Below, piece by piece: positions 3,595-11,817 of a stretch of DNA of 12,002 nucleotides. The translations under genes were made by a program, and so were the position numbers. Under the pieces are notes generated by a model. That model was not told the DNA's origin. It ran no database searches and saw only the letters and a list, made by a program, of their open reading frames with translations. Each line of letters opens with the position of its first letter. Positions within the stretch are counted from its first letter, which is position 1. Location: NCBI GenBank assembly GCA_030747675.1, contig JASLKH010000086.1, positions 1-12,002 of the forward strand, in the 5' to 3' direction. Source of the stretch: Candidatus Thalassarchaeaceae archaeon. Its GTDB lineage: Archaea; Thermoplasmatota; Poseidoniia; Poseidoniales; Thalassarchaeaceae.

Positions 3595-3617
3595 CCCAAA
3601 GGGTGTGGAGTGAGATT

Positions 3618-3902
3618 ATGGTCAAGATGCCCCGTCAAGTAAAGCGGTACAGTCCCGCTGCGGGCCGCCACACATTACACACTGTTGAGCGCGTCAAGAA
3701 ACGCCGTGCGAGTGAGTTGAAATGGGGTCAGCGAAGATTCCGCAGAGTTACTGCAGGTTACCGTGGTTTCCCTCGTCCTAAGCCAGAAGGCCGTGAGAAG
3801 CCAACAAAGCGTGTAAATATCCTTTATCGATGTACTGAGACGGGAAAGGCTCACACGCCACCCTGTCAGCGTGCTAAAAAATTCGAACTTGTTGACAAGT
3901 GA
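3618..3902 (+). CDS. rpl44e: 50S ribosomal protein L44e (eL42), 94 aa
   Basis: MVKMPRQVKRY...HTLHTVERVKKRRASELKWGQRRFRR...EKPTKRVNILYRCTETGKAH fits the family pattern. It is the first gene of the conserved rpl44e-rps27e-aIF2a-nop10 operon. The ATG at 3618 has the SD GGAGTGA. Confidence 0.95.
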   Translation: MVKMPRQVKRYSPAAGRHTLHTVERVKKRRASELKWGQRRFRRVTAGYRGFPRPKPEGREKPTKRVNILYRCTETGKAHTPPCQRAKKFELVDK

Positions 3903-3916
3903 TAGTGGGTGAAATA

Positions 3917-4096
3917 ATGTCTAAAATAAAGAGTAAATTTCTCAAAGTACATTGCCGTGATTGTGGTAATGAACAAATTATGTTCGACCGTGCAACATCG
4001 GTAGTGAATTGCAACGTATGTGGTTCTACACTTGCTCGACCATCAGGTGGGAAGGCACACTTGACCGGTGCAACTGTTGCCGAGGTCCTCGAGTGA
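3917..4096 (+). CDS. rps27e: 30S ribosomal protein S27e, 59 aa
   Basis: SKFLKVHCRDCGNEQIMFDRATSVVNCNVCGSTLARPSGGKA contains both CxxC pairs. SD GGTGA at 3908-3912 supports the ATG at 3917. Confidence 0.96.
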   Translation: MSKIKSKFLKVHCRDCGNEQIMFDRATSVVNCNVCGSTLARPSGGKAHLTGATVAEVLE

Positions 4097-4110
4097 GGGG
4101 GCCTAATTCA

Positions 4111-4896
4111 ATGTCTGATGAAGATAATTGGCCTGAAATGGGCGAAATGCTGGTTTGTACAATCAAGACAGTAAAGCAGAACGGCGTTTACGTAGACTTG
4201 GGTGGCTACCCTGGAAAGGAAGGGTTTGTTTTTATTGGCGAGATTGCATCAGGTTGGGTCAAAAACATTCGCAGCCATGTTAGAGAAGGTCAGCGTGTTG
4301 TTGCTAAGGCGGTCAAAGTTCGCAAGGACCGACAAAGTATTGAGTTGTCAATCAAATCGGTTAGTGAAGAACGCCGAAGGGATGCTTTGCAGCGATGGAA
4401 GAATGAACAACGTGCTGGACAACTCCTGCGAATTGTTGGAGAACGATCTGGTTGGGATGAAGATAAAACTAAGGAGATACAATCCGAATTAGTTGAAACC
4501 TATGGTGGACTTTATTCTTCATTTGAGGAAACTGCTATCGATAATGATGCCCTATCCAATGAGGGATTTGAGGGAGATTGGATTGAACTTTTTATTGAGA
4601 CTGCAATTGAAAACATCATCCCTGATTTCGTCGTAATAAGAGCAATTGCAGAAATCGAGATTCATTCAATGGAAGGAGTAGAATTGATTCGAAATGCATT
4701 AACAGAGGTTGAAAATTGTTCTTCCAAAGAAGATGAAGTTGAAATTTCGTGTTACTATGATGGCGCTCCAGAGTATAGAATTGAGCTGAAGGCTCCCGAT
4801 TGGGAAATTGCTGAAAAAGGTTGGAGCGACGTTGAGTTGGCAATATCTACCACAATTACTGAAGATCATGGCTCCGCGGTAATCATTCGCGAATGA
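4111..4896 (+). CDS. eif2a: Translation initiation factor 2 alpha subunit (aIF2alpha), 261 aa
   Basis: N-terminal S1 domain (WPEMGEMLVCTIKTV...GVYVDL..YPGKEGFVFIGEIASGWVKNIRSHVREGQRVVAKAVKV....IELSIKSV), then QRWKNEQRA and a C-terminal GAPEYRIELKAPD. Operon position fits. The ATG at 4111 follows GAGGGGG; the longer ORF-track start overlaps rps27e. Confidence 0.96.
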   Translation: MSDEDNWPEMGEMLVCTIKTVKQNGVYVDLGGYPGKEGFVFIGEIASGWVKNIRSHVREGQRVVAKAVKVRKDRQSIELSIKSVSEERRRDALQRWKNEQRAGQLLRIVGERSGWDEDKTKEIQSELVETYGGLYSSFEETAIDNDALSNEGFEGDWIELFIETAIENIIPDFVVIRAIAEIEIHSMEGVELIRNALTEVENCSSKEDEVEISCYYDGAPEYRIELKAPDWEIAEKGWSDVELAISTTITEDHGSAVIIRE

Positions 4897-4969
4897 TTCG
4901 GCATCTATGCACTTCAGGATGAGTCATGTTCAAAGGCCCAGTTGTTTGGTTAGCAGATTGGAGATTCCG

Positions 4970-5182
4970 ATGGCACGAACAAAACTTCAGAAGTGCACTG
5001 CTTGTGGGGAGTACGGTTTGTCTGAAACTTGCAAAGAATGTGGCGGGAAAGCGCAGGCAGCAGGCCCAATGAAGTTCTCACCTGAAGATTCTCGTGCACA
5101 CCTACGTCGCCGGTTAAAGAATGTTGAATCAAAAGAATGGGTTGAATCACTGCCGTCCCCAGATGGTGGTGAAGAAGAATGA
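4970..5182 (+). CDS. nop10: H/ACA RNA-protein complex protein Nop10, 70 aa
   Basis: KLQKCTACGEYGLSETCKECGG...PMKFSPED...LRRRLK gives the zinc ribbon plus the FSPED motif. SD GGAG at 4960-4963. Canonical position after aIF2alpha. Confidence 0.93.
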   Translation: MARTKLQKCTACGEYGLSETCKECGGKAQAAGPMKFSPEDSRAHLRRRLKNVESKEWVESLPSPDGGEEE

Positions 5183-5934
5183 CGACTAAGTTACATTGGT
5201 TTGAAGGCGAATCCTTACCTGAACATAGAGTTCTCCTAATGGCAGTCCCAGGTGTTGGAAATGTCGGTAAATTAGTACTTGATACGATGGTTGAGCATTG
5301 CGATTCTACTTTATTAGCCAACATAATCCATCCCGATTTACCGCCACATGCAACAATGAATTCTGATGGTTTACTCACCCCTCCACATTTGTCGATACAT
5401 TCAGTCAGAATGTCCAATGGCGATTGTGTTATTGTGATTACAGGAACAGGGCAACCAATGATTCCTCGAGGACAGCACGAATTGGCAGGCTCGATTTTGG
5501 AATTAGCGAAAGAATCCAGCTGCGATCTTTTGCTCGTACTCGCTGGACTTTCAGCAGACCCAGGTGATACTGATATTCATATGACCTGTGCCGAGCAAAG
5601 TGTGCGAGAAAACCTAATGGATTCAGGTTTGAATATTAGTTCTAAGCATCCAGCTGGAGGTATGTTGGGGTTAGCAGGATTAGTGGTTTCACTTGCCCCA
5701 ATGTTTGGAGTCCCAAGTGTAGCATGTATGTCTGAGACCATTGGGACGAGCGTTGATGTTCAAGCCGCAGACCGTTTAGCAAAGCGAATATCACTTGATT
5801 TTGGTTTGGGATTGGAATTACCAATCGATAATACAAGTGATACAGCATCACGCTTGTTTGCCATGATGGAAGGAAAGGAAATTGCAGGGATTGACCTTTC
5901 AGAAGATGACTCTCCGTCAGGATTCTACGCGTAA
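5179..5934 (+). CDS. PAC2-family protein (proteasome assembly chaperone / PbaA-PbaB-like), 251 aa
   Basis: N-terminal AVPGVGNVGKL matches the family G.PG.G.VGk motif, with further matches at TGTGQPM and G.LGLAGL...A...G. It overlaps the nop10 stop (ATGA) and occupies the conserved position after nop10. The C-terminus is GFYA. Confidence 0.85.
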   Translation: MTTKLHWFEGESLPEHRVLLMAVPGVGNVGKLVLDTMVEHCDSTLLANIIHPDLPPHATMNSDGLLTPPHLSIHSVRMSNGDCVIVITGTGQPMIPRGQHELAGSILELAKESSCDLLLVLAGLSADPGDTDIHMTCAEQSVRENLMDSGLNISSKHPAGGMLGLAGLVVSLAPMFGVPSVACMSETIGTSVDVQAADRLAKRISLDFGLGLELPIDNTSDTASRLFAMMEGKEIAGIDLSEDDSPSGFYA

Positions 5935-5978: not shown

Positions 5979-6064
5979 GCCGAGATCGCATAGCCCGGTA
6001 TCGCGGTGGATTCGAAATCCACTGTCCTCGTGACGCGGGAGTTCAAATCTCTCTCTCGGCGCCA
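5979..6064 (+). tRNA. tRNA-Ser, anticodon CGA, intronless, CCA encoded
   Basis: Acceptor stem GCCGAGA/TCTCGGC, discriminator G, then CCA. Anticodon stem GTGGA/TCCAC with loop TT-CGA-AA (6011-6017). Long variable arm (GTC/GAC stem). T arm GGGAG-TTCAAAT-CTCTC. D-loop TAGCCCGGTA. Confidence 0.97.
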
Positions 6065-6099
6065 TCAAACTCTTGAAGGGTAAGGCTGTAGCCGAGTAC

Positions 6100-6300
6100 A
6101 TGCAGGTCGGCATCACTCACGAAGGTGAGCGTGTATCACACATATTTGATAATCAGATAACAATATCCGATGTACTTGAGAAAATGGCAATCCCTCCTTC
6201 CACTGTTTTGACAGTAGTTGATGAAAAAATTGTCCCCCATACCTCAATAATTACTGATGACATTGAGATAGAATTAATCATAGTTTCAAGCGGCGGCTAG
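6100..6300 (+). CDS. Ubiquitin-like small archaeal modifier / ThiS-MoaD family sulfur carrier, 66 aa
   Basis: MQVGITHEGERVSHIFDNQITISDVLEKMAIPPSTVLTVVDEKIVPHTSIITDDIEIELIIVSSGG has beta-grasp size and pattern and ends in diglycine. The ATG at 6100 has no SD and is probably leaderless. Confidence 0.88.
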   Translation: MQVGITHEGERVSHIFDNQITISDVLEKMAIPPSTVLTVVDEKIVPHTSIITDDIEIELIIVSSGG

Positions 6301-8129
6301 TCATCACGTCGTTTGAGAATAACCAATCGAGTATTCTTTTGGAATTTAATTTCAGGTCTTCCAAAGAATTCTGAGTACACTCCATTGAGTATTGCAATTT
6401 CATCTCCGGGCTGTATTGAAGGTGCCGAAATGGGTACGGCAAAACTGTAGGCCACAACATCAATTCGTCCTGTTCCGTCTTGCATTGTGAAGCGCCATTT
6501 TGGTTTTCCAGATGCTGTCCGATTCTTTTGCCACGTAGTGTCTCGAATCGTCATTACCCTTCCAACAACGCTTCCAGCTGTGATTAGCCCGACAATGTCT
6601 TCTCCATCCCTTTCAGAAGGTTCAATAATTTCGACTGTGGATTCGTTGTCTAACTCTATCGAGGGGTTGTAATTCCATTCTGTCGGCCTTCCATTTTTGA
6701 TACGAATAAAAACTCCATTTTTGATACGTCGTGAAATAGCCCTTGGTTTGGGGATAAAGCAATTTTTCACTTCAATTCTATCAACACCTTGTTGTAAATA
6801 GAATTTGATTTCAATTCCTCCATCTGAATCTTTGATTGGCGTTAGTAACCCATTAACTTCACCACATAGGTCTACTCTTGTCACTAAATCAGTCGAATTA
6901 GTAATTGGCCATTTCTTCCCTGCATGGTCTAATCTATCTATTTCCGGTAAACTTCCCCTATTTTCTGCTGAAGGACAAATTGTAGCATGATCGCACGATT
7001 TACATCTTGCCAAAGGATCAGGGTCTTCTCCAATATGTGTACCGCCATTTTCGAAAAGTTGTACCTTTGAAGGCGTGGCTGGAAACTCATCTTCAGCTCC
7101 CCTATTTTTGAAAAGAGTATCATACGCTTCACGTAATTCTGAATCTATTTCATTAAGTCGCCTTTCATCGGGTGCTTGGATGACTTTGATTTGAGGTGCG
7201 CCAGCATACCATATACGTAGATCTTCAACACGTTCCGATTCCCCATGCGTTGACCACCATAGCCATGCATAAATTTCCAATTGCTTAACATATCCTGCAG
7301 ACCGGTCATTATTCCCCATTGCGGCTTTCAAATCTATAATGGAAATAGTTCCGTCCCAAGAATAAACAAAGTCATATTCTCCCCAAAACCAGTGTTCAGG
7401 ATGGACCGTTCCAAGTGAGAACGTGGCAGCATCTGGATCAACAAACCAAGGTCTAGCAACCTCCCATGCTTCCATTAGTGTACATCCCCCTTCGCTGACT
7501 GAAGGGTGTGGTTCAGACCACTTGAATGGAAATCCATCAGGTGGTGGCCATTCTGGCCTTTTCCCCTTTCGCCATTCATCAAGGGTAGGGCCACCATTTT
7601 CATCTAAACAGCGTTTGACTTCATCAAGGTGAAAATCAATTGTCGCTAGAGTCATCGATAGCATTTTTTCGTCATCAAGATCTTCACCACTTCCGATCGC
7701 CATTGGGTCATCTTCGAAAGATGCTACGTGCCCATCCTTGACATTAGTGAGGTGGATTGCGGCACGAGAATATGCCCATTCACGTAACGCTTCGATATTT
7801 GTAATGGGTTTTTGAGATGGTAATTTTGGGGCTGGCCACGATTCTACTGAATTTCGGTCCGGCCGACCATCTTCATCAATTGGTGATGATAGAACATCCC
7901 AATTCGCATCACTTGTAACTACTGCGGGGGATTCTCGGAGAACTCTACATACTGTGGACTCAACAATGTGGCCACGCATCATTGCGGGCACACTTGGCCC
8001 TTTCAGATATTCTACTCGCCGTAGGTACCAGGATCTAGGACATCCTTCATATTGGATTAGACTGGTAGCAGATAATCGTTCAAACTTACTAATCAACAGT
8101 GCATCGTCATCTACAATTTGAACAGGCAC
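6297..8129 (-). CDS. PD-(D/E)XK (Cas4/AddB/RecB-like) nuclease with a four-Cys Fe-S staple motif fused to C-terminal OB folds, paralogue B, 610 aa
   Basis: RLSATSLIQYEGCPRSWYL (C30), GHIVE, GEYD (D253), IIDLK (D266, K268), QLEIY and CKSCDHATIC (C376/379/385). The C-terminal region has OB-fold hallmarks (RFTMQDGTGRIDVVAY...IQPGDEIAILNG.....GRPEIKF). GTG start. The stop overlaps the SAMP stop (CTAG, 6297-6300). Confidence 0.85.
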   Translation of the reverse strand: MPVQIVDDDALLISKFERLSATSLIQYEGCPRSWYLRRVEYLKGPSVPAMMRGHIVESTVCRVLRESPAVVTSDANWDVLSSPIDEDGRPDRNSVESWPAPKLPSQKPITNIEALREWAYSRAAIHLTNVKDGHVASFEDDPMAIGSGEDLDDEKMLSMTLATIDFHLDEVKRCLDENGGPTLDEWRKGKRPEWPPPDGFPFKWSEPHPSVSEGGCTLMEAWEVARPWFVDPDAATFSLGTVHPEHWFWGEYDFVYSWDGTISIIDLKAAMGNNDRSAGYVKQLEIYAWLWWSTHGESERVEDLRIWYAGAPQIKVIQAPDERRLNEIDSELREAYDTLFKNRGAEDEFPATPSKVQLFENGGTHIGEDPDPLARCKSCDHATICPSAENRGSLPEIDRLDHAGKKWPITNSTDLVTRVDLCGEVNGLLTPIKDSDGGIEIKFYLQQGVDRIEVKNCFIPKPRAISRRIKNGVFIRIKNGRPTEWNYNPSIELDNESTVEIIEPSERDGEDIVGLITAGSVVGRVMTIRDTTWQKNRTASGKPKWRFTMQDGTGRIDVVAYSFAVPISAPSIQPGDEIAILNGVYSEFFGRPEIKFQKNTRLVILKRRDD

Positions 8130-8160: not shown

Positions 8161-9945
8161 CTATGGAGTATCTTGTTCTTCTTTTGATTCGCGAGGTAAC
8201 GTCTCAATTGTCAGCCGAGTATTTCTTGGGTCAATTCGAAGTTGAGGTGTTCCTTCTCTCCATCCTAATTCTGCAGACATCAAACGAATGTTATCACCAA
8301 TTTGTAAATTATCAAATGATTCACTTCTCCCTGAACCAAAAGCAACAACTTCGACTAATCCAGTTCCATCCCAAACATGCGCCATTGACATTGACCAGTT
8401 TCTTCCAGATGAATTGATACCACTATTGAATCCTCTACTAATGATGGTACCAGCGATATTAGCACGAGTCGGAATCAAACCTAATCGATTAATTTCCATA
8501 TCTTTGGCATCTTCAGAGGAAATAATTTTACTATCGATATCGAGATAGAGTCTAACCATCCCCCTCCATTGTCCTGGAGCAGCATCAACAATGACAAATT
8601 CACCTTTGTAATCATGCAAAATCGGAAATTGCCCGCATCCCATTTCCTCAATTACTGCAGATTTATCTCCAACCGTAATTGCAGCCCCTATCACACTACT
8701 GCCGAAGTGATTAGGGAGTGGACCCCAATGCCCATGCAAATTCCCTTTGACTGTAACTCGGCTTGGGAGGTTGGAAATAGGGGTAAATGGTGCTCCCGCG
8801 GTTGACTTTTTGAATTCAGGAATGAGGCGGTGTAATGGTTGTTCTTCTCCCCCGCGTGGATAATCACAAGTATCTAAACCATGGCAAACTTGACAAGACA
8901 ACCTTCCTTCAATAGTTGGTTTATCGGCATTAAGATTAAAATCATTCAGAGAGGCCAAAGTCATTTGTTGTTGGATTTTGGAAAGTCGGGGGGCCTCATT
9001 TTCAATTTCATCAATTAATCGAGCCTCATGCACGAATCCATCTGCAAGGTGCCAAGATTTCAAGGCGACAACAGGGCCACTTTTTACATGGTCAATAGGT
9101 TTCGAGGGATGATGCCGTGTTTCGATCCACAACCATTGATAAAATCGTAATTGAGTAGCAACTCCTGAGTGGTCACGCCCATGTCCTCGATTAGCTTTGA
9201 TATCGACAATCTGTACATCACCTCTCCAACGGTGTGCCATATCTAATTCGCCTGCAGCCCATCCATCGGGATGAAATAACCGCTGAGCACTGTTGATTCG
9301 GGGATCTTTTGCCCAAGGGCGAGATACTTCCCATGCCTCCCACCAACTGCAAGGCTCACCTTTTGCTTGCCAACCCTCACCTTTTCCTGAGTCCCAGCAT
9401 GGCGCAGGTGTTCCAAAAGGATCACCAATTTCACGAAATATTTCGAGAAATGGCCCCCCATTTTGTTCCAAGCACAATTTCGCTTCATTAATTTGGAGTT
9501 TGATGGCATTTTTCACCATCGCATTCAATTTTTCACGTTTTACATCATCTGGACTCCTTCCTTCTGCTTTCCAAATTATATTATCCCATCCTTCATTCAG
9601 TTGACGTCTAATTTCATCTACAATGGGTTGCATTAATGTCCGCAACCATGTTTGTAATTCATCGAGATTTGTGATGGTTAATATTTCGCCATGTTCACTT
9701 GTGACCCATTGTGTGTTTTTTTCTTTCATCCCATTCTCAGGATGAGGTCGCTCCATCCAAATTGCAGTGGCGGCTTCTTCAACAATATGCCCCAAAATCA
9801 TTTCAGGATGCTTCGGTACTTGCAGCCCCAATCTTCGTGTAAGGAACCAATCTCTCCGACAACGTTCCCATGTGACCATTGAAGAAGCAGACAACCTCCT
9901 TCTACTTCTGGCAAAAACACCAGTTGGTTGTGGTATCACTGGCAT
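8161..9945 (-). CDS. PD-(D/E)XK (Cas4/AddB/RecB-like) nuclease with a four-Cys Fe-S staple motif fused to C-terminal OB folds, paralogue A, 594 aa
   Basis: RLSASSMVTWERCRRDWFL (C29), GHIVE, GELD (D235), IVDIK (D248, K250), QLRFY and CQVCHGLDTC (C351/354/360). The C-terminal OB fold reads AHVWDGTGLVEVVAFG...LQIGDNIRL......EGTPQLRI. The start is set at ATG 9945 because it gives MPV like the paralogue and follows GAGTG. Confidence 0.85.
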   Translation of the reverse strand: MPVIPQPTGVFARSRRRLSASSMVTWERCRRDWFLTRRLGLQVPKHPEMILGHIVEEAATAIWMERPHPENGMKEKNTQWVTSEHGEILTITNLDELQTWLRTLMQPIVDEIRRQLNEGWDNIIWKAEGRSPDDVKREKLNAMVKNAIKLQINEAKLCLEQNGGPFLEIFREIGDPFGTPAPCWDSGKGEGWQAKGEPCSWWEAWEVSRPWAKDPRINSAQRLFHPDGWAAGELDMAHRWRGDVQIVDIKANRGHGRDHSGVATQLRFYQWLWIETRHHPSKPIDHVKSGPVVALKSWHLADGFVHEARLIDEIENEAPRLSKIQQQMTLASLNDFNLNADKPTIEGRLSCQVCHGLDTCDYPRGGEEQPLHRLIPEFKKSTAGAPFTPISNLPSRVTVKGNLHGHWGPLPNHFGSSVIGAAITVGDKSAVIEEMGCGQFPILHDYKGEFVIVDAAPGQWRGMVRLYLDIDSKIISSEDAKDMEINRLGLIPTRANIAGTIISRGFNSGINSSGRNWSMSMAHVWDGTGLVEVVAFGSGRSESFDNLQIGDNIRLMSAELGWREGTPQLRIDPRNTRLTIETLPRESKEEQDTP

Positions 9946-9954
9946 AATAAACAC

Positions 9955-11733
9955 TCATTCTGCATAGAAATATTCTCCTCTTGATTTTTGCTCTCGATCT
10001 TTCCTACTATCGTGTTTGTTGATACGTGGCCTATGGCTATCATGATCGCGTCGGAAGGTGATGCCAACTTGACTTAGAAAACGATTCATTCCTTTTCGGA
10101 GAGGCAGTGGCCCAACTGCTGAACCATTCTCTCCACCAACACCATCAAAAACAAGTAAGGAATCACTTACAATGTCTATGAAATAGATATCGTGATCGAT
10201 TACCATTGCTGCCTTCTCATTGACTTCCATTGTTTTCCTGATTGCTTTCGCTGCCTCCATTCTCGCATTCGCATCTAGGTGTGCACTTGGTTCATCTAGC
10301 AAGTATAGATCAGCATCTTTACCCAGGCAAATTGCAATACTAACTGCTTGTAATTCTCCACCTGATAATTTTCTAACATCTTGTTCTAGTAATTTGTCAA
10401 CTTGAAGTGGCCGAATCACAGTGGTGTGGAATTCACCTTTTCTCCATTTCGTTCCAATTTCACAATCGAGCCATAGGCGAACAGTCCCTTCAAAATCTGA
10501 TCTAACATGCTGCGGTTTGTAGGATATCTTCGCTTCCATAGTACACCAACCGGCATCCATTTCGATTTCACCAGCAACCATTTTGACCATGGTGGTTTTA
10601 CCTGTAGCATTAGGGCCTACAACACCTACTACCTCGGAACTGTGCACTTTACCAGTATCTGTTTTGAGTTGGAATGTACCTAATTTCTTCTCCAAGTCCC
10701 CCCATTCGAGAATTGGCTCCCCAATCTCTTCACCTCGCATTCTCCCCCGAAGGAACTGAATTGGTTTATCTCTAATTCGAATATTTTCTTGCTCTAAGAA
10801 ACCATCTAAGTATGCATTTATGGCTGTACGAGCGGGGCGTGGTGGCGTAAAAATTCCATATGCTGCTCGTTCGCCATACACGACGTGTATGAGGTCGCAC
10901 AAAACATCTAAAATTGCTAAATCATGCTCAATAACAATTACTCTTTTACCGGATTCAGATAATTTTTGGATAATTCTAACCATTCGCATTCTTTCGTAAA
11001 TGTCAAGATATGATGAAGGTTCATCAAAGAAGTATACATCAGCATCTTTCAGCAATGTTGCAGCAATTGCCACTCGTTGCAATTCACCACCTGATAATTC
11101 TGGTAAATTCCTTTCAAACAAATGGTTGATTGCTAATGCTTCAGCAGTTTCTTCAATGACTCCTCTTTGATCTACGCGTTGCAGCAATGCGCTTACCTTT
11201 CCATCGAAGGCACGAGGGATTTTGTCTACATATTGGGGTTTTACAGCTATACGGACACCTGAATCAGCGACTGTTGACATGAAATCACGAAGTTCTCCTC
11301 GTGGAAATGTTTCAATGATATCTTCCCATGGCCTTTCTCCCGATAACCATTCACCCAGATTGGGGCGAATTGTTCCTGAAAGGAGGTTTATTGCAGTTGA
11401 TTTCCCCATTCCATTCGCACCAAGAATACCTACAACTTGTTCTTCTCTTGGAACTGGTAATCTAAATAATCTAAACCCATTTTCCCCATAACGATGAATC
11501 ATATCTGTTTCCAGTTCGGATGGTAGGTTTGTAATTACTAGTGCATCAAATGGACATTTGTTTATGCAGATTCCACATCCTATACACAATGGTTCCGAGA
11601 TAATGGGTTTACCGTTTCCTTCATGCATCACAATACACTCAATCCCATTCCTAACAGGTGGACAAAATGATTGACATTCATCATTACATTTCTTTGGTTG
11701 ACAACGGTCTTCCAAAAGAACTGCAACTCGCAT
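9955..11733 (-). CDS. abce1: Ribosome recycling ATPase ABCE1 / RNase L inhibitor (RLI), 592 aa
   Basis: N-terminal two-cluster Fe-S domain (CQPKKCNDECQSFCP; CIGCGICINKCP). There are two NBDs, with Walker A GANGMGKS and GPNATGKT, signature LSGGELQ twice, and Walker B FFDEPS and LLDEPS. The C-terminus has ITFRRD...RPRINK. SD GGAGGGAG supports the ATG at 11733. Confidence 0.98.
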   Translation of the reverse strand: MRVAVLLEDRCQPKKCNDECQSFCPPVRNGIECIVMHEGNGKPIISEPLCIGCGICINKCPFDALVITNLPSELETDMIHRYGENGFRLFRLPVPREEQVVGILGANGMGKSTAINLLSGTIRPNLGEWLSGERPWEDIIETFPRGELRDFMSTVADSGVRIAVKPQYVDKIPRAFDGKVSALLQRVDQRGVIEETAEALAINHLFERNLPELSGGELQRVAIAATLLKDADVYFFDEPSSYLDIYERMRMVRIIQKLSESGKRVIVIEHDLAILDVLCDLIHVVYGERAAYGIFTPPRPARTAINAYLDGFLEQENIRIRDKPIQFLRGRMRGEEIGEPILEWGDLEKKLGTFQLKTDTGKVHSSEVVGVVGPNATGKTTMVKMVAGEIEMDAGWCTMEAKISYKPQHVRSDFEGTVRLWLDCEIGTKWRKGEFHTTVIRPLQVDKLLEQDVRKLSGGELQAVSIAICLGKDADLYLLDEPSAHLDANARMEAAKAIRKTMEVNEKAAMVIDHDIYFIDIVSDSLLVFDGVGGENGSAVGPLPLRKGMNRFLSQVGITFRRDHDSHRPRINKHDSRKDREQKSRGEYFYAE

Positions 11734-11817
11734 TGAATCTCCCTCCTGTTTGCTTCTTGACAAATTCCGTTCTTAATCGATGCGTGACTCACTAAACGAG
11801 AGTCCGCGTTTTTACAC

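What the first reader, a model, noticed from the sequence alone, without database searches (positions are those of the whole stretch)
6297..6881. Fe-S staple nuclease fused to RPA-like OB folds (a built-in ssDNA-binding module)
Seen: after the CxxCx5C motif each protein has about 200 further residues (B from ~6881, A from ~8763 to their stops). These form two beta-rich repeats; the last has the RPA/SSB-type pattern G.v.......f.l.DgTG.i.vvaf.......l..GD.i.l.......G.pel. The first repeat is less certain. Established: one N-terminal Cys plus CxxCx5C around a RecB-type core is the 4Fe-4S staple of Cas4, AddB, Dna2 and Exo5, and eukaryotic Dna2 and Exo5 depend on separate RPA for loading and polarity. 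Inference: a single-chain equivalent of a Dna2/Exo5 nuclease plus RPA.
Basis: partly seen in the sequence, partly recalled or inferred. Interest (0 to 1): 0.75.

Follow-up and report, generated by a model that had tools for sequence, protein, structure and literature searches.

The report
Iron-sulfur nuclease with built-in RPA-like domains
Two neighbouring genes of a marine Group II archaeon each fuse a Cas4/AddB-type iron-sulfur DNA nuclease to a pair of RPA-like single-strand-binding domains, an uncharacterised helicase-less enzyme found in nearly every member of an archaeal order where the usual Mre11/NurA DNA-end-processing genes were not found.

Summary
Gene B (6297-8129, minus strand, 610 aa) and gene A (8161-9945, minus strand) each encode a PD-(D/E)XK nuclease. 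In 141 family representatives the RecB motifs are invariant and the four cluster cysteines (1 + CxxCx5C) nearly so. Two OB folds follow the nuclease in both proteins.

- **Structure models:** AlphaFold models are confident (pLDDT 91 and 81).
- **Nuclease domain:** It resembles ACE1, AdnAB, AddB, Exo5, Cas4 and Dna2 (Z 16-11).
- **C-terminal ~210 residues:** They match tandem OB proteins (RPA70 DBD-A/B, Teb1; Foldseek E 3e-9). By sequence profile they match archaeal RPA (E 6e-8).
- **First OB:** The less certain repeat is also an OB fold and is similar to OB2.

The functional inference remains untested.

New here:
- The family was found in 148 of 151 Poseidoniales genomes and in none of 231 other Thermoplasmatota searched.
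- It sits in a conserved housekeeping locus.
- Mre11/SbcD, NurA, the Rad50 hook and Cas1 were not found in Poseidoniales, while RadA was found in all 41 searched.
- Streamlined genera keep only B.

My reading is an ATP-independent ssDNA-end nuclease with an in-cis RPA-like module, probably for DNA-end or flap processing.

The scan found this family before on two other MGII genomes (e1-2887486, e1-4487161). It is a new variant of a known kind.

The parts
6297..8129 (-). Gene B (NucB), 610 aa: Fe-S PD-(D/E)XK nuclease plus two OB folds; GTG start, homologues begin MPV
6963..8090 (-). B nuclease domain (residues about 14-389). It includes a roughly 195-residue, largely helical family-specific insert between E57 and D253 with a fifth nearly invariant Cys (C174).
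   Evidence: VIA-align: ACE1 9iab Z 16.1, AdnAB Z 14.8, AddB Z 12.9, Exo5 Z 11.9, Cas4 Z 11.3, Dna2 Z 11.1; Pfam PF12705 E 2.5e-14
8040..8042 (-). B: N-terminal cluster cysteine C30
   Evidence: C in 130 of 141 representatives, 10 of the rest N-terminally truncated
7269..7373 (-). B: RecB motifs D253, D266-x-K268 and Q283-x3-Y287
   Evidence: invariant in 141 of 141 representatives; coordinates
6975..7004 (-). B: CxxCx5C (C376, C379, C385), the three C-terminal cluster ligands
   Evidence: 141, 137 and 140 of 141
6606..6935 (-). B: OB fold 1 (residues about 399-508), conserved R418 and W485
6300..6605 (-). B: OB fold 2 (residues about 509-610), RPA/SSB-type, aromatics W545, Y561, F588
   Evidence: PF01336 above cut-off; Pyrococcus abyssi RPA E 6e-8 with alignment; conservation
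8161..9945 (-). Gene A (NucA), 594 aa from ATG 9945 (ORF opens at GTG 9954): paralogue of B, 25% identical end to end
8866..8895 (-). A: CxxCx5C (C354, C357, C363); the N-terminal Cys is C32 at 9859-9861; motifs D238, D251-x-K253, Q268, Y272 lie at 9139-9243
8197..8766 (-). A: two OB folds (residues about 397-485 and 486-586)
   Evidence: model pLDDT 81.4; Foldseek RPA70 4gop_C E 3.2e-9, 1jmc, Pyrococcus abyssi RPA
9955..11763 (-). ABCE1 (RLI) gene directly upstream, same strand; its stop lies 9 nt before A's ATG. This is conserved context, probably one transcription unit.

Best explanation
Each gene encodes a helicase-less, ATP-independent single-stranded-DNA nuclease. The N-terminal domain is a Cas4/AddB-class PD-(D/E)XK nuclease. 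One N-terminal and three C-terminal cysteines should staple it around a [4Fe-4S] cluster. The C-terminal tandem OB pair, derived from RPA-type OB folds, binds the ssDNA strand in cis. I infer that it holds or feeds a free end or flap into the active site, doing within one chain what separate RPA does for Exo5 and Dna2. The enzyme is a housekeeping DNA-end or flap processor of marine Group II archaea. Its most likely role is to produce or trim ssDNA for RadA-dependent recombination and fork repair, because the Mre11, Rad50-hook and NurA genes of the canonical archaeal machinery were not found in this order. Where both paralogues exist they probably work together. B alone suffices in streamlined genera. 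Shown: domain architecture, residue conservation, distribution and synteny. Inferred: cluster, substrate, polarity, partnership and cellular role.
For: Architecture: Pfam PDDEXK_1 plus an OB fold in both proteins; confident models; nuclease fold hits at Z 11-16 to ACE1, AdnAB, AddB, Exo5, Cas4 and Dna2; tandem-OB hits to RPA70 A/B and Teb1 AB at E 3e-9. Active enzyme: E57, D253, D266, K268, Q283 and Y287 are invariant and the four Cys nearly so in 141 cluster representatives covering both paralogue clades. ssDNA binding: OB2 aligns to Pyrococcus abyssi RPA and Sulfolobus SSB. Aromatic residues are kept at the W56 column (99%), the F79 column (89%) and W545 (98%); OB1 keeps W485 (95%). Beyond the family, the profile hits multi-OB proteries of the archaeal RPA type, with Rep_fac-A_C domains, at E 1e-28 to 1e-17. 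Housekeeping: found in 148 of 151 Poseidoniales genomes and 58 of 58 high-quality ones. The synteny ABCE1-A-B-orf75-PAC2-Nop10-aIF2alpha-S27e-L44e-PurF is conserved across the order. Gap it could fill: SbcD/Mre11 was found in 0 of 38 Poseidoniales genomes against 110 of 112 other Thermoplasmatota, and in 0 of 70 with the Mre11 of the sister family as query. NurA was found in 0 of 61 and the Rad50 hook in 0 of 41, yet RadA in 41 of 41. The nuclease family was found in 0 of 231 non-Poseidoniales genomes. Precedent: EXO5 resects ssDNA 5'-3' with polarity enforced by RPA, and Dna2 has an OB fold packed on its Fe-S nuclease domain (PMC8710748).
Against: There are no biochemical data for any member. 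The Mre11/nuclease-OB complementarity reflects one evolutionary split, since kin are not independent, so it is only suggestive. NurA was also not found in about two thirds of the other Thermoplasmatota searched, which also showed no match to this family. No helicase partner was identified, and resection of duplex ends normally needs one. The gene neighbours are translation genes, not repair genes. A DUF87/HerA-like ATPase of about 837 aa is present in one family of the order. No RNA-seq holder was listed.
Confidence: 0.55

Rival explanations
1. The chemistry is the same, but the cellular role is replication-linked: a Dna2/Exo5-like trimmer of long 5' flaps on Okazaki fragments or of stalled or reversed forks, rather than double-strand-break resection.
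For: Dna2 and Exo5 are among the structural matches (Z 11.1 and 11.9), and both work on RPA-coated flaps or forks (PMC8710748). The gene sits beside the L44E-S27E-aIF2alpha-Nop10 cluster, which in most archaea adjoins PCNA/PriS/Gins15 (PMC2643942). No helicase domain is needed for flap threading.
Against: The nuclease genes are convergent to that cluster, not co-oriented with it. The failure to find Mre11/NurA gives a more specific gap for end processing. The two roles are not exclusive.
Confidence: 0.2
2. The OB pair is not an ssDNA feeder. It is a dsDNA-binding (HIN-200-like) or protein-protein module, for example for pairing A with B or docking on RPA, as OB folds do in the RPA trimer core.
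For: HIN-200 dsDNA-binding tandem OBs rank as high as RPA70 A/B in Foldseek. Dna2's OB fold binds RPA rather than DNA. Superpositions on RPA70 A/B have a high rmsd (14-16 A), which indicates a different inter-OB orientation.
Against: By sequence the module matches only ssDNA-binding RPA/SSB proteins. Aromatic residues at the SSB W56 and F79 columns are kept in 89-99% of members.
Confidence: 0.08
3. It is an RNA nuclease tied to ABCE1-dependent ribosome rescue or mRNA surveillance, with the OB folds binding RNA.
For: ABCE1 lies directly upstream on the same strand with a 9-nt gap, and this arrangement is conserved in the family Poseidoniaceae and in the window's genus. The neighbourhood is translation-related.
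Against: All characterised Fe-S Cas4/AddB/Exo5/Dna2-class enzymes are DNA nucleases, and the OB folds match RPA/SSB rather than S1 or cold-shock types. Genomes with B only have no adjacent ABCE1, so the link is not obligatory.
Confidence: 0.07
4. It is a defence or mobile-element nuclease: a solo Cas4, or a partner of an immune effector as ACE1 is.
For: The best structural match is ACE1, an Argonaute-associated Cas4-family ssDNA endonuclease (PMC12094033). There are weak PADLOC Cas4/DruK and PHROG exonuclease hits.
Against: The gene is near-universal and syntenic in the core genome across the whole order. Cas1 was found in 0 of 61 genomes. The Cas4 equivalog TIGR00372 scores 16 bits against a cut-off of 65. 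No defence genes were identified among the flanking genes scanned.
Confidence: 0.05

Closest known systems
AddB / AdnA-AdnB nuclease domains and ACE1 (Cas4-family Fe-S PD-(D/E)XK nucleases)
   Same: Same fold (Z 12.9-16.1 over about 225-250 residues). Same RecB motifs and the same 1+3 cysteine staple. ACE1 is a stand-alone ssDNA endonuclease (PMC12094033). AdnAB, like this locus, pairs two paralogous nuclease-bearing subunits.
   Different: AddB and AdnAB carry their nuclease at the end of SF1 helicase(-like) motors, and ACE1 partners with an Argonaute. Here there is no ATPase domain. There is a roughly 195-residue family-specific insert and two C-terminal OB folds.
Eukaryotic Exo5 and Dna2 working with RPA
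   Same: Fe-S PD-(D/E)XK nucleases that act on ssDNA ends. RPA enforces EXO5 polarity, and Dna2 has an OB fold packed on the nuclease plus a beta-barrel directly after it (PMC8710748). Structural matches are Z 11.9 and Z 11.1.
   Different: Exo5 has no OB fold and Dna2 has an SF1 helicase. Their ssDNA-binding partner RPA is a separate heterotrimer. Here two RPA-type OB folds are fused C-terminally. No Pfam Exo5 or Dna2 match reached the E 0.1 threshold.
Archaeal RPA / SSB (Pyrococcus abyssi Rpa1 OB-1, Methanococcus maripaludis RPA, Sulfolobus SSB)
   Same: OB2 aligns by sequence (E 6e-8 to 2e-4) and by structure (Z 11.4-12.0). Its aromatic DNA-stacking columns are conserved. The tandem arrangement resembles RPA70 DBD-A/B.
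   Different: This is not an RPA. The RPA equivalog models score 11-14 bits against cut-offs above 440. No Rep_fac-A_C match was returned, and I saw no zinc-finger motif by eye. The genome has a separate 580-aa multi-OB, zinc-finger RPA candidate.
CRISPR-associated and solo Cas4
   Same: Same nuclease superfamily and cysteine pattern, with weak profile hits.
   Different: About three times longer, with OB folds. There is no Cas1 in the order, and the score is far below the Cas4 equivalog cut-off.

Membership tests
Fe-S 'staple' PD-(D/E)XK nucleases (Cas4/AddB/AdnAB/Exo5/Dna2 class; Pfam PF12705) | RecB motifs: acidic motif II, (D/E)xK motif III and QhxxY | tested here: met
   D253, D266-x-K268 and Q283-x3-Y287 are invariant in 141 of 141. 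PF12705 scores 54.2 and 36.8 bits against a cut-off of 22.
Fe-S 'staple' PD-(D/E)XK nucleases (Cas4/AddB/AdnAB/Exo5/Dna2 class; Pfam PF12705) | One N-terminal Cys plus three C-terminal Cys (CxxCx5C) bracketing the core | tested here: met
   C30, C376, C379 and C385 in B; C32, C354, C357 and C363 in A. The A clade of Poseidoniaceae has a permuted C-x4-6-C-x2-C arrangement.
Fe-S 'staple' PD-(D/E)XK nucleases (Cas4/AddB/AdnAB/Exo5/Dna2 class; Pfam PF12705) | Fold similarity to solved members | tested here: met
   ACE1 Z 16.1, AdnAB 14.8, AddB 12.9, Exo5 11.9, Cas4 11.3, Dna2 11.1
Fe-S 'staple' PD-(D/E)XK nucleases (Cas4/AddB/AdnAB/Exo5/Dna2 class; Pfam PF12705) | Bound [4Fe-4S] cluster and metal-dependent DNA nuclease activity | not testable with these tools
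   Needs purified protein (UV-vis or EPR, nuclease assays).
Cas4 proper (TIGR00372; CRISPR adaptation) | Score above the equivalog cut-off and association with cas1 or CRISPR | tested here: not met
   16.4 bits against a cut-off of 65. Cas1 found in 0 of 61 Poseidoniales genomes.
Dna2 | SF1 helicase domain C-terminal to the nuclease | tested here: not met
   No P-loop or helicase Pfam match in either protein. The C-terminus is two OB folds.
Exo5 (Pfam Exo5) | Match to the Exo5 family profile | tested here: inconclusive
   No Exo5 hit at E up to 0.1 in the Pfam scan, but structural similarity to human EXO5 is Z 11.9.
RPA/SSB-type OB fold (Pfam PF01336 and relatives) | Five-stranded OB barrel with a profile match | tested here: met
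   B scores 33.1 bits against a cut-off of 27; A scores 16.3 bits, below it. Both model as two barrels. Matches: RPA structures Z 11-12, Foldseek E 3e-9, profile to Pyrococcus abyssi RPA E 6e-8.
RPA/SSB-type OB fold (Pfam PF01336 and relatives) | Aromatic ssDNA-stacking residues at the SSB W56 and F79 columns | tested here: met
   Y561 column 99% aromatic, F588 column 89%, W545 98%, and OB1 W485 95%. That W56 and F79 are stacking residues is from my own knowledge.
RPA/SSB-type OB fold (Pfam PF01336 and relatives) | ssDNA binding | not testable with these tools
   Needs EMSA or fluorescence anisotropy with the isolated C-terminal module.
Archaeal RPA proper (NF005554, NF006255) | Score above the equivalog cut-off; zinc-finger / Rep_fac-A_C domain | tested here: not met
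   14 and 11.3 bits against cut-offs of 447 and 442. No Rep_fac-A_C match.

The most novel reading that the evidence does not exclude
This family is the missing DNA-end resection machinery of marine Group II archaea. On this reading the Mre11-Rad50/HerA-NurA system was displaced non-orthologously by a helicase-less Fe-S nuclease that carries its own RPA-like ssDNA-binding pair and supplies RadA with ssDNA. It would act as an A-B heterodimer, or as B alone in streamlined genera.
Probability: 0.3. Interest if true: 0.75.

Novelty: new variant of a known kind. Interest (0 to 1): 0.58.

Why it matters
Marine Group II archaea are, to my knowledge, among the most abundant archaea of the sunlit ocean, and none is in culture. 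Their DNA-repair toolkit is therefore known only from sequence. Here an entire order keeps RadA, while Mre11, NurA and the Rad50 hook were not found by family or protein searches. Nearly all of its genomes carry a nuclease architecture I could not find described: a Cas4/AddB-type Fe-S nuclease with two RPA-type OB folds in cis. If the OB pair sets substrate choice and polarity, the protein would be a one-chain natural model for how RPA directs Exo5/Dna2-type nucleases. The protein is small, lacks an ATPase and can be tested directly by recombinant expression.

Tried and rejected
- Single-sequence phmmer of B against PDB sequences gave nothing meaningful, and OB1 alone likewise. Only the family profile and the structure models were informative.
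- RNA evidence: no RNA holder was listed for the locus, so expression and operon structure could not be checked and read laying was not used.
- Origin of the single-OB relatives of about 400-480 aa (P0185, P0186, P0211, P0245, P0258; alignment A3): two genome-contig scans and one metagenome scan found nothing, and the alignment was too divergent for a pattern scan.
- A profile of those short relatives searched across the phylum found only the Poseidoniales family plus weak hits. The two listed were ordinary 277-295-aa PD-(D/E)XK ORFs, too short to carry OB folds. The ESM Atlas hints at a Myxococcota cluster, which is a lead only.
- A strict NurA-versus-nuclease complementarity was considered and rejected as an argument, because NurA was also not found in about two thirds of other Thermoplasmatota.
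- The Rad50-hook search has weak sensitivity: only 2 of 4 archaeal control genomes matched.
- The DUF87/HerA search hits an ORF of about 837 aa in one family only. Its identity was not pursued.
- PADLOC and PHROGs gave only weak generic Cas4 or exonuclease hits.
- Literature searches found no paper on this architecture or on Mre11 loss in MGII. The library is incomplete, so this is not proof of novelty.
- Cysteine geometry and the position of the OB pair relative to the active site could not be examined, because model coordinates are not exposed.
Full report
**What is in the window**

The window is archaeal. It carries L44e, S27e, aIF2-alpha, Nop10, a PAC2-family protein, PurF and ABCE1. Its homologues are named Thalassarchaeaceae, Poseidoniales or Thermoplasmatota. 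It is contig C86 of a 1.68-Mb, 78%-complete assembly.

Three genes lie head to tail on the minus strand:
- ABCE1 (9955-11763).
- Paralogue A (ORF 8161-9954). Its likely start is the ATG at 9945, because homologues begin MPV.
- Paralogue B (6297-8129).

The finding's interval, 6297-6881, is the last 194 residues of B.

**Check of the observation**

- **Cysteines.** B has C30 plus C376-x2-C379-x5-C385. A has C32 plus C354-x2-C357-x5-C363.
- **Paralogy.** A and B align end to end at 25% identity (E 5e-37).
- **Pfam.** Both proteins match PDDEXK_1 (54.2 and 36.8 bits; cut-off 22). The PF01336 OB fold sits at the extreme C-terminus: 33.1 bits, above the 27-bit cut-off, in B, and 16.3 bits in A.
- **Conservation.** In an alignment of 141 cluster representatives covering both paralogue clades, E57, D253, D266, K268, Q283 and Y287 are invariant. 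The four cysteines are conserved in 130-141 of 141; ten of the eleven sequences lacking C30 are N-terminally truncated.

Both paralogues therefore look like active Fe-S nucleases.

**Structure**

With 28 homologues, AlphaFold2 gives B a mean pLDDT of 91.0 and pTM of 0.86. With 19 homologues, A gives 81.4 and 0.82. A's low-confidence stretch is 338-384, which contains its C-terminal cluster cysteines.

An exhaustive VIA-align search with the B model matched residues about 9-390 to:
- ACE1 (9iab, Z 16.1, 238 residues aligned)
- AdnAB (Z 14.8 and 14.4)
- AddB (Z 12.9)
- human EXO5 (Z 11.9)
- Cas4 (Z 11.3)
- Dna2 (Z 11.1)

The same search matched residues about 400-610 to RPA-type OB folds: Methanococcus maripaludis RPA (Z 12.0), Teb1, and Pyrococcus abyssi Rpa1 AROD-OB-1 (Z 11.4).

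Foldseek with either whole model ranks tandem-OB proteins first, over about 205-235 aligned columns. For B these are Teb1 AB, RPA70 DBD-A/B (1fgu, 1jmc) and HIN-200 domains, from E 3.2e-9. For A they are RPA70 4gop_C (E 3.2e-9), HIN-200 domains, 1jmc and Pyrococcus abyssi RPA. The high rmsd of these superpositions (13-18 A) indicates that each barrel matches but the inter-barrel orientation differs from the solved tandems.

**Are the OB folds RPA-like, and is the first repeat real?**

A profile of the family searched against all PDB sequences finds only ssDNA-binding OB proteins for OB2:
- Pyrococcus abyssi RPA (E 6e-8)
- a Methanobacterium RPA-related protein (2.8e-6)
- Sulfolobus SSB (2e-4)
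- human RPA70 (2.5e-3)

In those alignments the family's 'vvaF/Y/W' aligns with 'VVLW', 'AVFW' and 'LTLW', and 'gEFaGrp' aligns with 'TAFKGQ'. From my own knowledge, these are the columns of the ssDNA-stacking residues W56 and F79 of Sulfolobus SSB.

Across 141 representatives these columns are 99% and 89% aromatic. W545 is 98% conserved, and OB1 keeps W485 at 95%.

A profile search of 1.84 billion representative proteins finds RPA-type proteins beyond the family itself. They have multiple OB folds and Rep_fac-A_C domains, they match profile positions about 410-612, and they score E 1e-28 to 1e-17.

Four lines of evidence support OB1:
- the model shows a barrel
- VIA hits are confined to 413-503 (Z 9.1-9.3)
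- the profile hits the OB protein Ta0387 (E 0.0018)
- OB1 aligns collinearly with OB2 (26% over 90 aa, E 1e-4), as expected for a tandem duplication

**Not an RPA, not Cas4, not Dna2**

- The RPA equivalog models score 11-14 bits against cut-offs above 440, and the Cas4 equivalog scores 16 bits against 65.
- No ATPase or helicase domain is detected.
- The genome has its own candidate RPA. It is a 580-aa protein on contig C95 with repeated OB folds and a CPEC...C zinc-finger-like motif, weakly similar to the nuclease's OB module.

The built-in OB pair therefore adds to the cellular ssDNA-binding protein rather than replacing it.

**Distribution and context**

- The family profile finds the gene in 148 of 151 Poseidoniales genomes: 58 of 58 high-quality ones and 22 of 22 genera.
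- The nuclease domain alone finds nothing in 231 other Thermoplasmatota genomes, including 0 of 8 genomes of the sister family in the same class.
- The order ABCE1-A-B-(orf75)-PAC2-Nop10-aIF2alpha-S27e-L44e-...-PurF is conserved across the order.
- Small-genome genera of the window's own family have only B, and ABCE1 is not adjacent there. A is therefore dispensable, and the pair cannot be an obligate heterodimer everywhere.
- Cas1 was not found in 61 genomes, and PADLOC gives only weak generic hits. This argues against a CRISPR or defence role.
- The L44E-S27E-aIF2alpha-Nop10(-COG2047) cluster next to B adjoins PCNA/PriS/Gins15 in most archaea (PMC2643942). This is a weak hint, because the nuclease genes are convergent to the cluster.

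**A gap the enzyme could fill**

| Search | Poseidoniales | Other Thermoplasmatota |
|---|---|---|
| SbcD/Mre11 (TIGR00619; matches all four archaeal control genomes) | 0 of 38 | 110 of 112 |
| Mre11 of the sister family (in an Mre11-Rad50 operon) as query | 0 of 70 | not searched |
| NurA (PF09376) | 0 of 61 | 50 of 151 |
| Rad50 zinc hook (weak control) | 0 of 41 | not searched |
| RadA (PF08423) | 41 of 41 | not searched |

A separate SbcD/Mre11 search of 41 genomes of the order gave one weak hit, in its third family.

An order that keeps the recombinase, but in which the canonical end-processing nucleases were not found, carries this nuclease-OB fusion in nearly all genomes. This is one phylogenetic event, so it has no statistical weight. 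NurA is also patchy elsewhere in the phylum. I treat the pattern as suggestive only.

**Mechanism proposed**

- **Shown:** the architecture, the conservation of catalytic, cysteine and aromatic residues, the core-genome status and the distribution.
- **Inferred:** the four cysteines hold a [4Fe-4S] cluster, as in AddB, Cas4, Exo5 and Dna2.
- **Inferred:** the tandem OB pair binds ssDNA next to the nuclease. It presents a free end or flap to the active site and so sets substrate choice, processivity or polarity in cis. This is what separate RPA does for EXO5 ('5' to 3'... enforced by RPA') and for Dna2, whose own OB fold is packed against its nuclease domain (PMC8710748).
- **Inferred:** the high pTM values (0.86 and 0.82) suggest a defined packing of the OB pair on the nuclease. 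I could not inspect the coordinates.

The most likely cellular role is DNA-end or flap processing for RadA-dependent repair or fork restart. Replication-linked flap trimming is the main alternative and is not exclusive.

**Comparison with what is known, and novelty**

Nuclease-plus-OB combinations are common, from my own knowledge: RecJ, the ExoVII large subunit and Dna2. The Fe-S PD-(D/E)XK class is well studied.

I found no description of a Cas4/AddB-type Fe-S nuclease fused to a C-terminal RPA-type tandem OB pair, nor of Mre11 loss in MGII. The paper library is incomplete. Public records call these proteins 'PD-(D/E)XK nuclease family protein' or 'hypothetical protein'.

The scan itself met the family twice before on other MGII genomes and reached similar conclusions (e1-2887486, e1-4487161). 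My tests were made independently and agree.

I rate it a new variant of a known kind. The interest is moderate, and it is raised by the failure to find the canonical end-processing genes across the order.

**Details worth recording**

- In the A clade of the Poseidoniaceae genomes, the three C-terminal cysteines are arranged C-x4-6-C-x2-C instead of CxxCx5C.
- A fifth cysteine is nearly invariant (C174 in B, 139 of 141; C161 in A). It lies in the family-specific helical insert.
- A few metagenomic proteins of about 400-480 aa share the family's signature but have a shorter insert. They appear to carry one OB fold instead of two: hhalign probability 99.4% for P0245, which also has a weak PF01336 hit, while the others rest on the alignment alone. 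Their origin could not be traced.

Noticed in passing
window 6073-6300 (+): A small ORF (about 66 aa from its internal Met) ends in Gly-Gly, which looks like a ThiS/MoaD/SAMP-type ubiquitin-like protein. It is conserved next to gene B in five of the eight genomes compared, across both large families (31-55% identity). It overlaps B's stop codon convergently by 4 nt. There was no Pfam hit at E 0.001.
   Followed up: partly
window 9945-9957 and loci L031-L038: The ABCE1 stop lies 9 nt before A's ATG, so the two are probably one operon. In genomes that have lost A, ABCE1 is no longer adjacent to B, so ABCE1 travels with A. The meaning is unknown; both are Fe-S proteins.
   Followed up: partly
L032:8150-9865, L033:9880-11637, L036:7964-9556, L037:8011-9735, L038:7032-8762: In the A paralogues of the Poseidoniaceae genomes the C-terminal cysteine triad is permuted to C-x4-6-C-x2-C ('C....GC.WC') instead of CxxCx5C. 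The third ligand seems to have moved upstream.
   Followed up: partly
window 7608-7610 (B C174) and 9472-9474 (A C161): A fifth, nearly invariant cysteine (139 of 141) lies in the family-specific helical insert between the first nuclease motif and the catalytic Asp. Also conserved there is the block W222...R226-P-W228..D231-P232. The role is unknown.
   Followed up: no
whole order (genome search): Mre11/SbcD, NurA and the Rad50 zinc hook were not found in Poseidoniales genomes, although RadA is universal there and Mre11 is near-universal in the rest of the phylum. A DUF87/HerA-like ORF of about 837 aa occurs only in one family of the order.
   Followed up: partly
G000:C95:23095-24837 (L039:538-2280, +): This 580-aa multi-OB protein with a CPEC...C zinc-finger-like motif is the likely RPA of this genome. 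It barely reaches Pfam thresholds (Ssb-like_OB 25.5 bits), and no Rep_fac-A_C match was found in this assembly, so MGII RPA appears divergent.
   Followed up: partly
proteins P0185, P0186, P0211, P0245, P0258 (alignment A3): Rare metagenomic relatives of 400-480 aa share the N-terminal Cys, RecB motifs, CxxCx5C and a W..RP block, but apparently have only one C-terminal OB fold. Only P0245 has a Pfam OB hit, and it is weak. Their origin is unknown; an Atlas lead points to Myxococcota.
   Followed up: partly
window 3603-5934 (+) and 5979-6064 (+): The archaeal L44E-S27E-aIF2alpha-Nop10 cluster, with the PAC2/COG2047 gene, is followed by tRNA-Ser(CGA). In most archaea this cluster adjoins PCNA/PriS/Gins15 (PMC2643942). 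Here the next protein genes are the small GG-ending ORF and the nuclease pair.
   Followed up: partly
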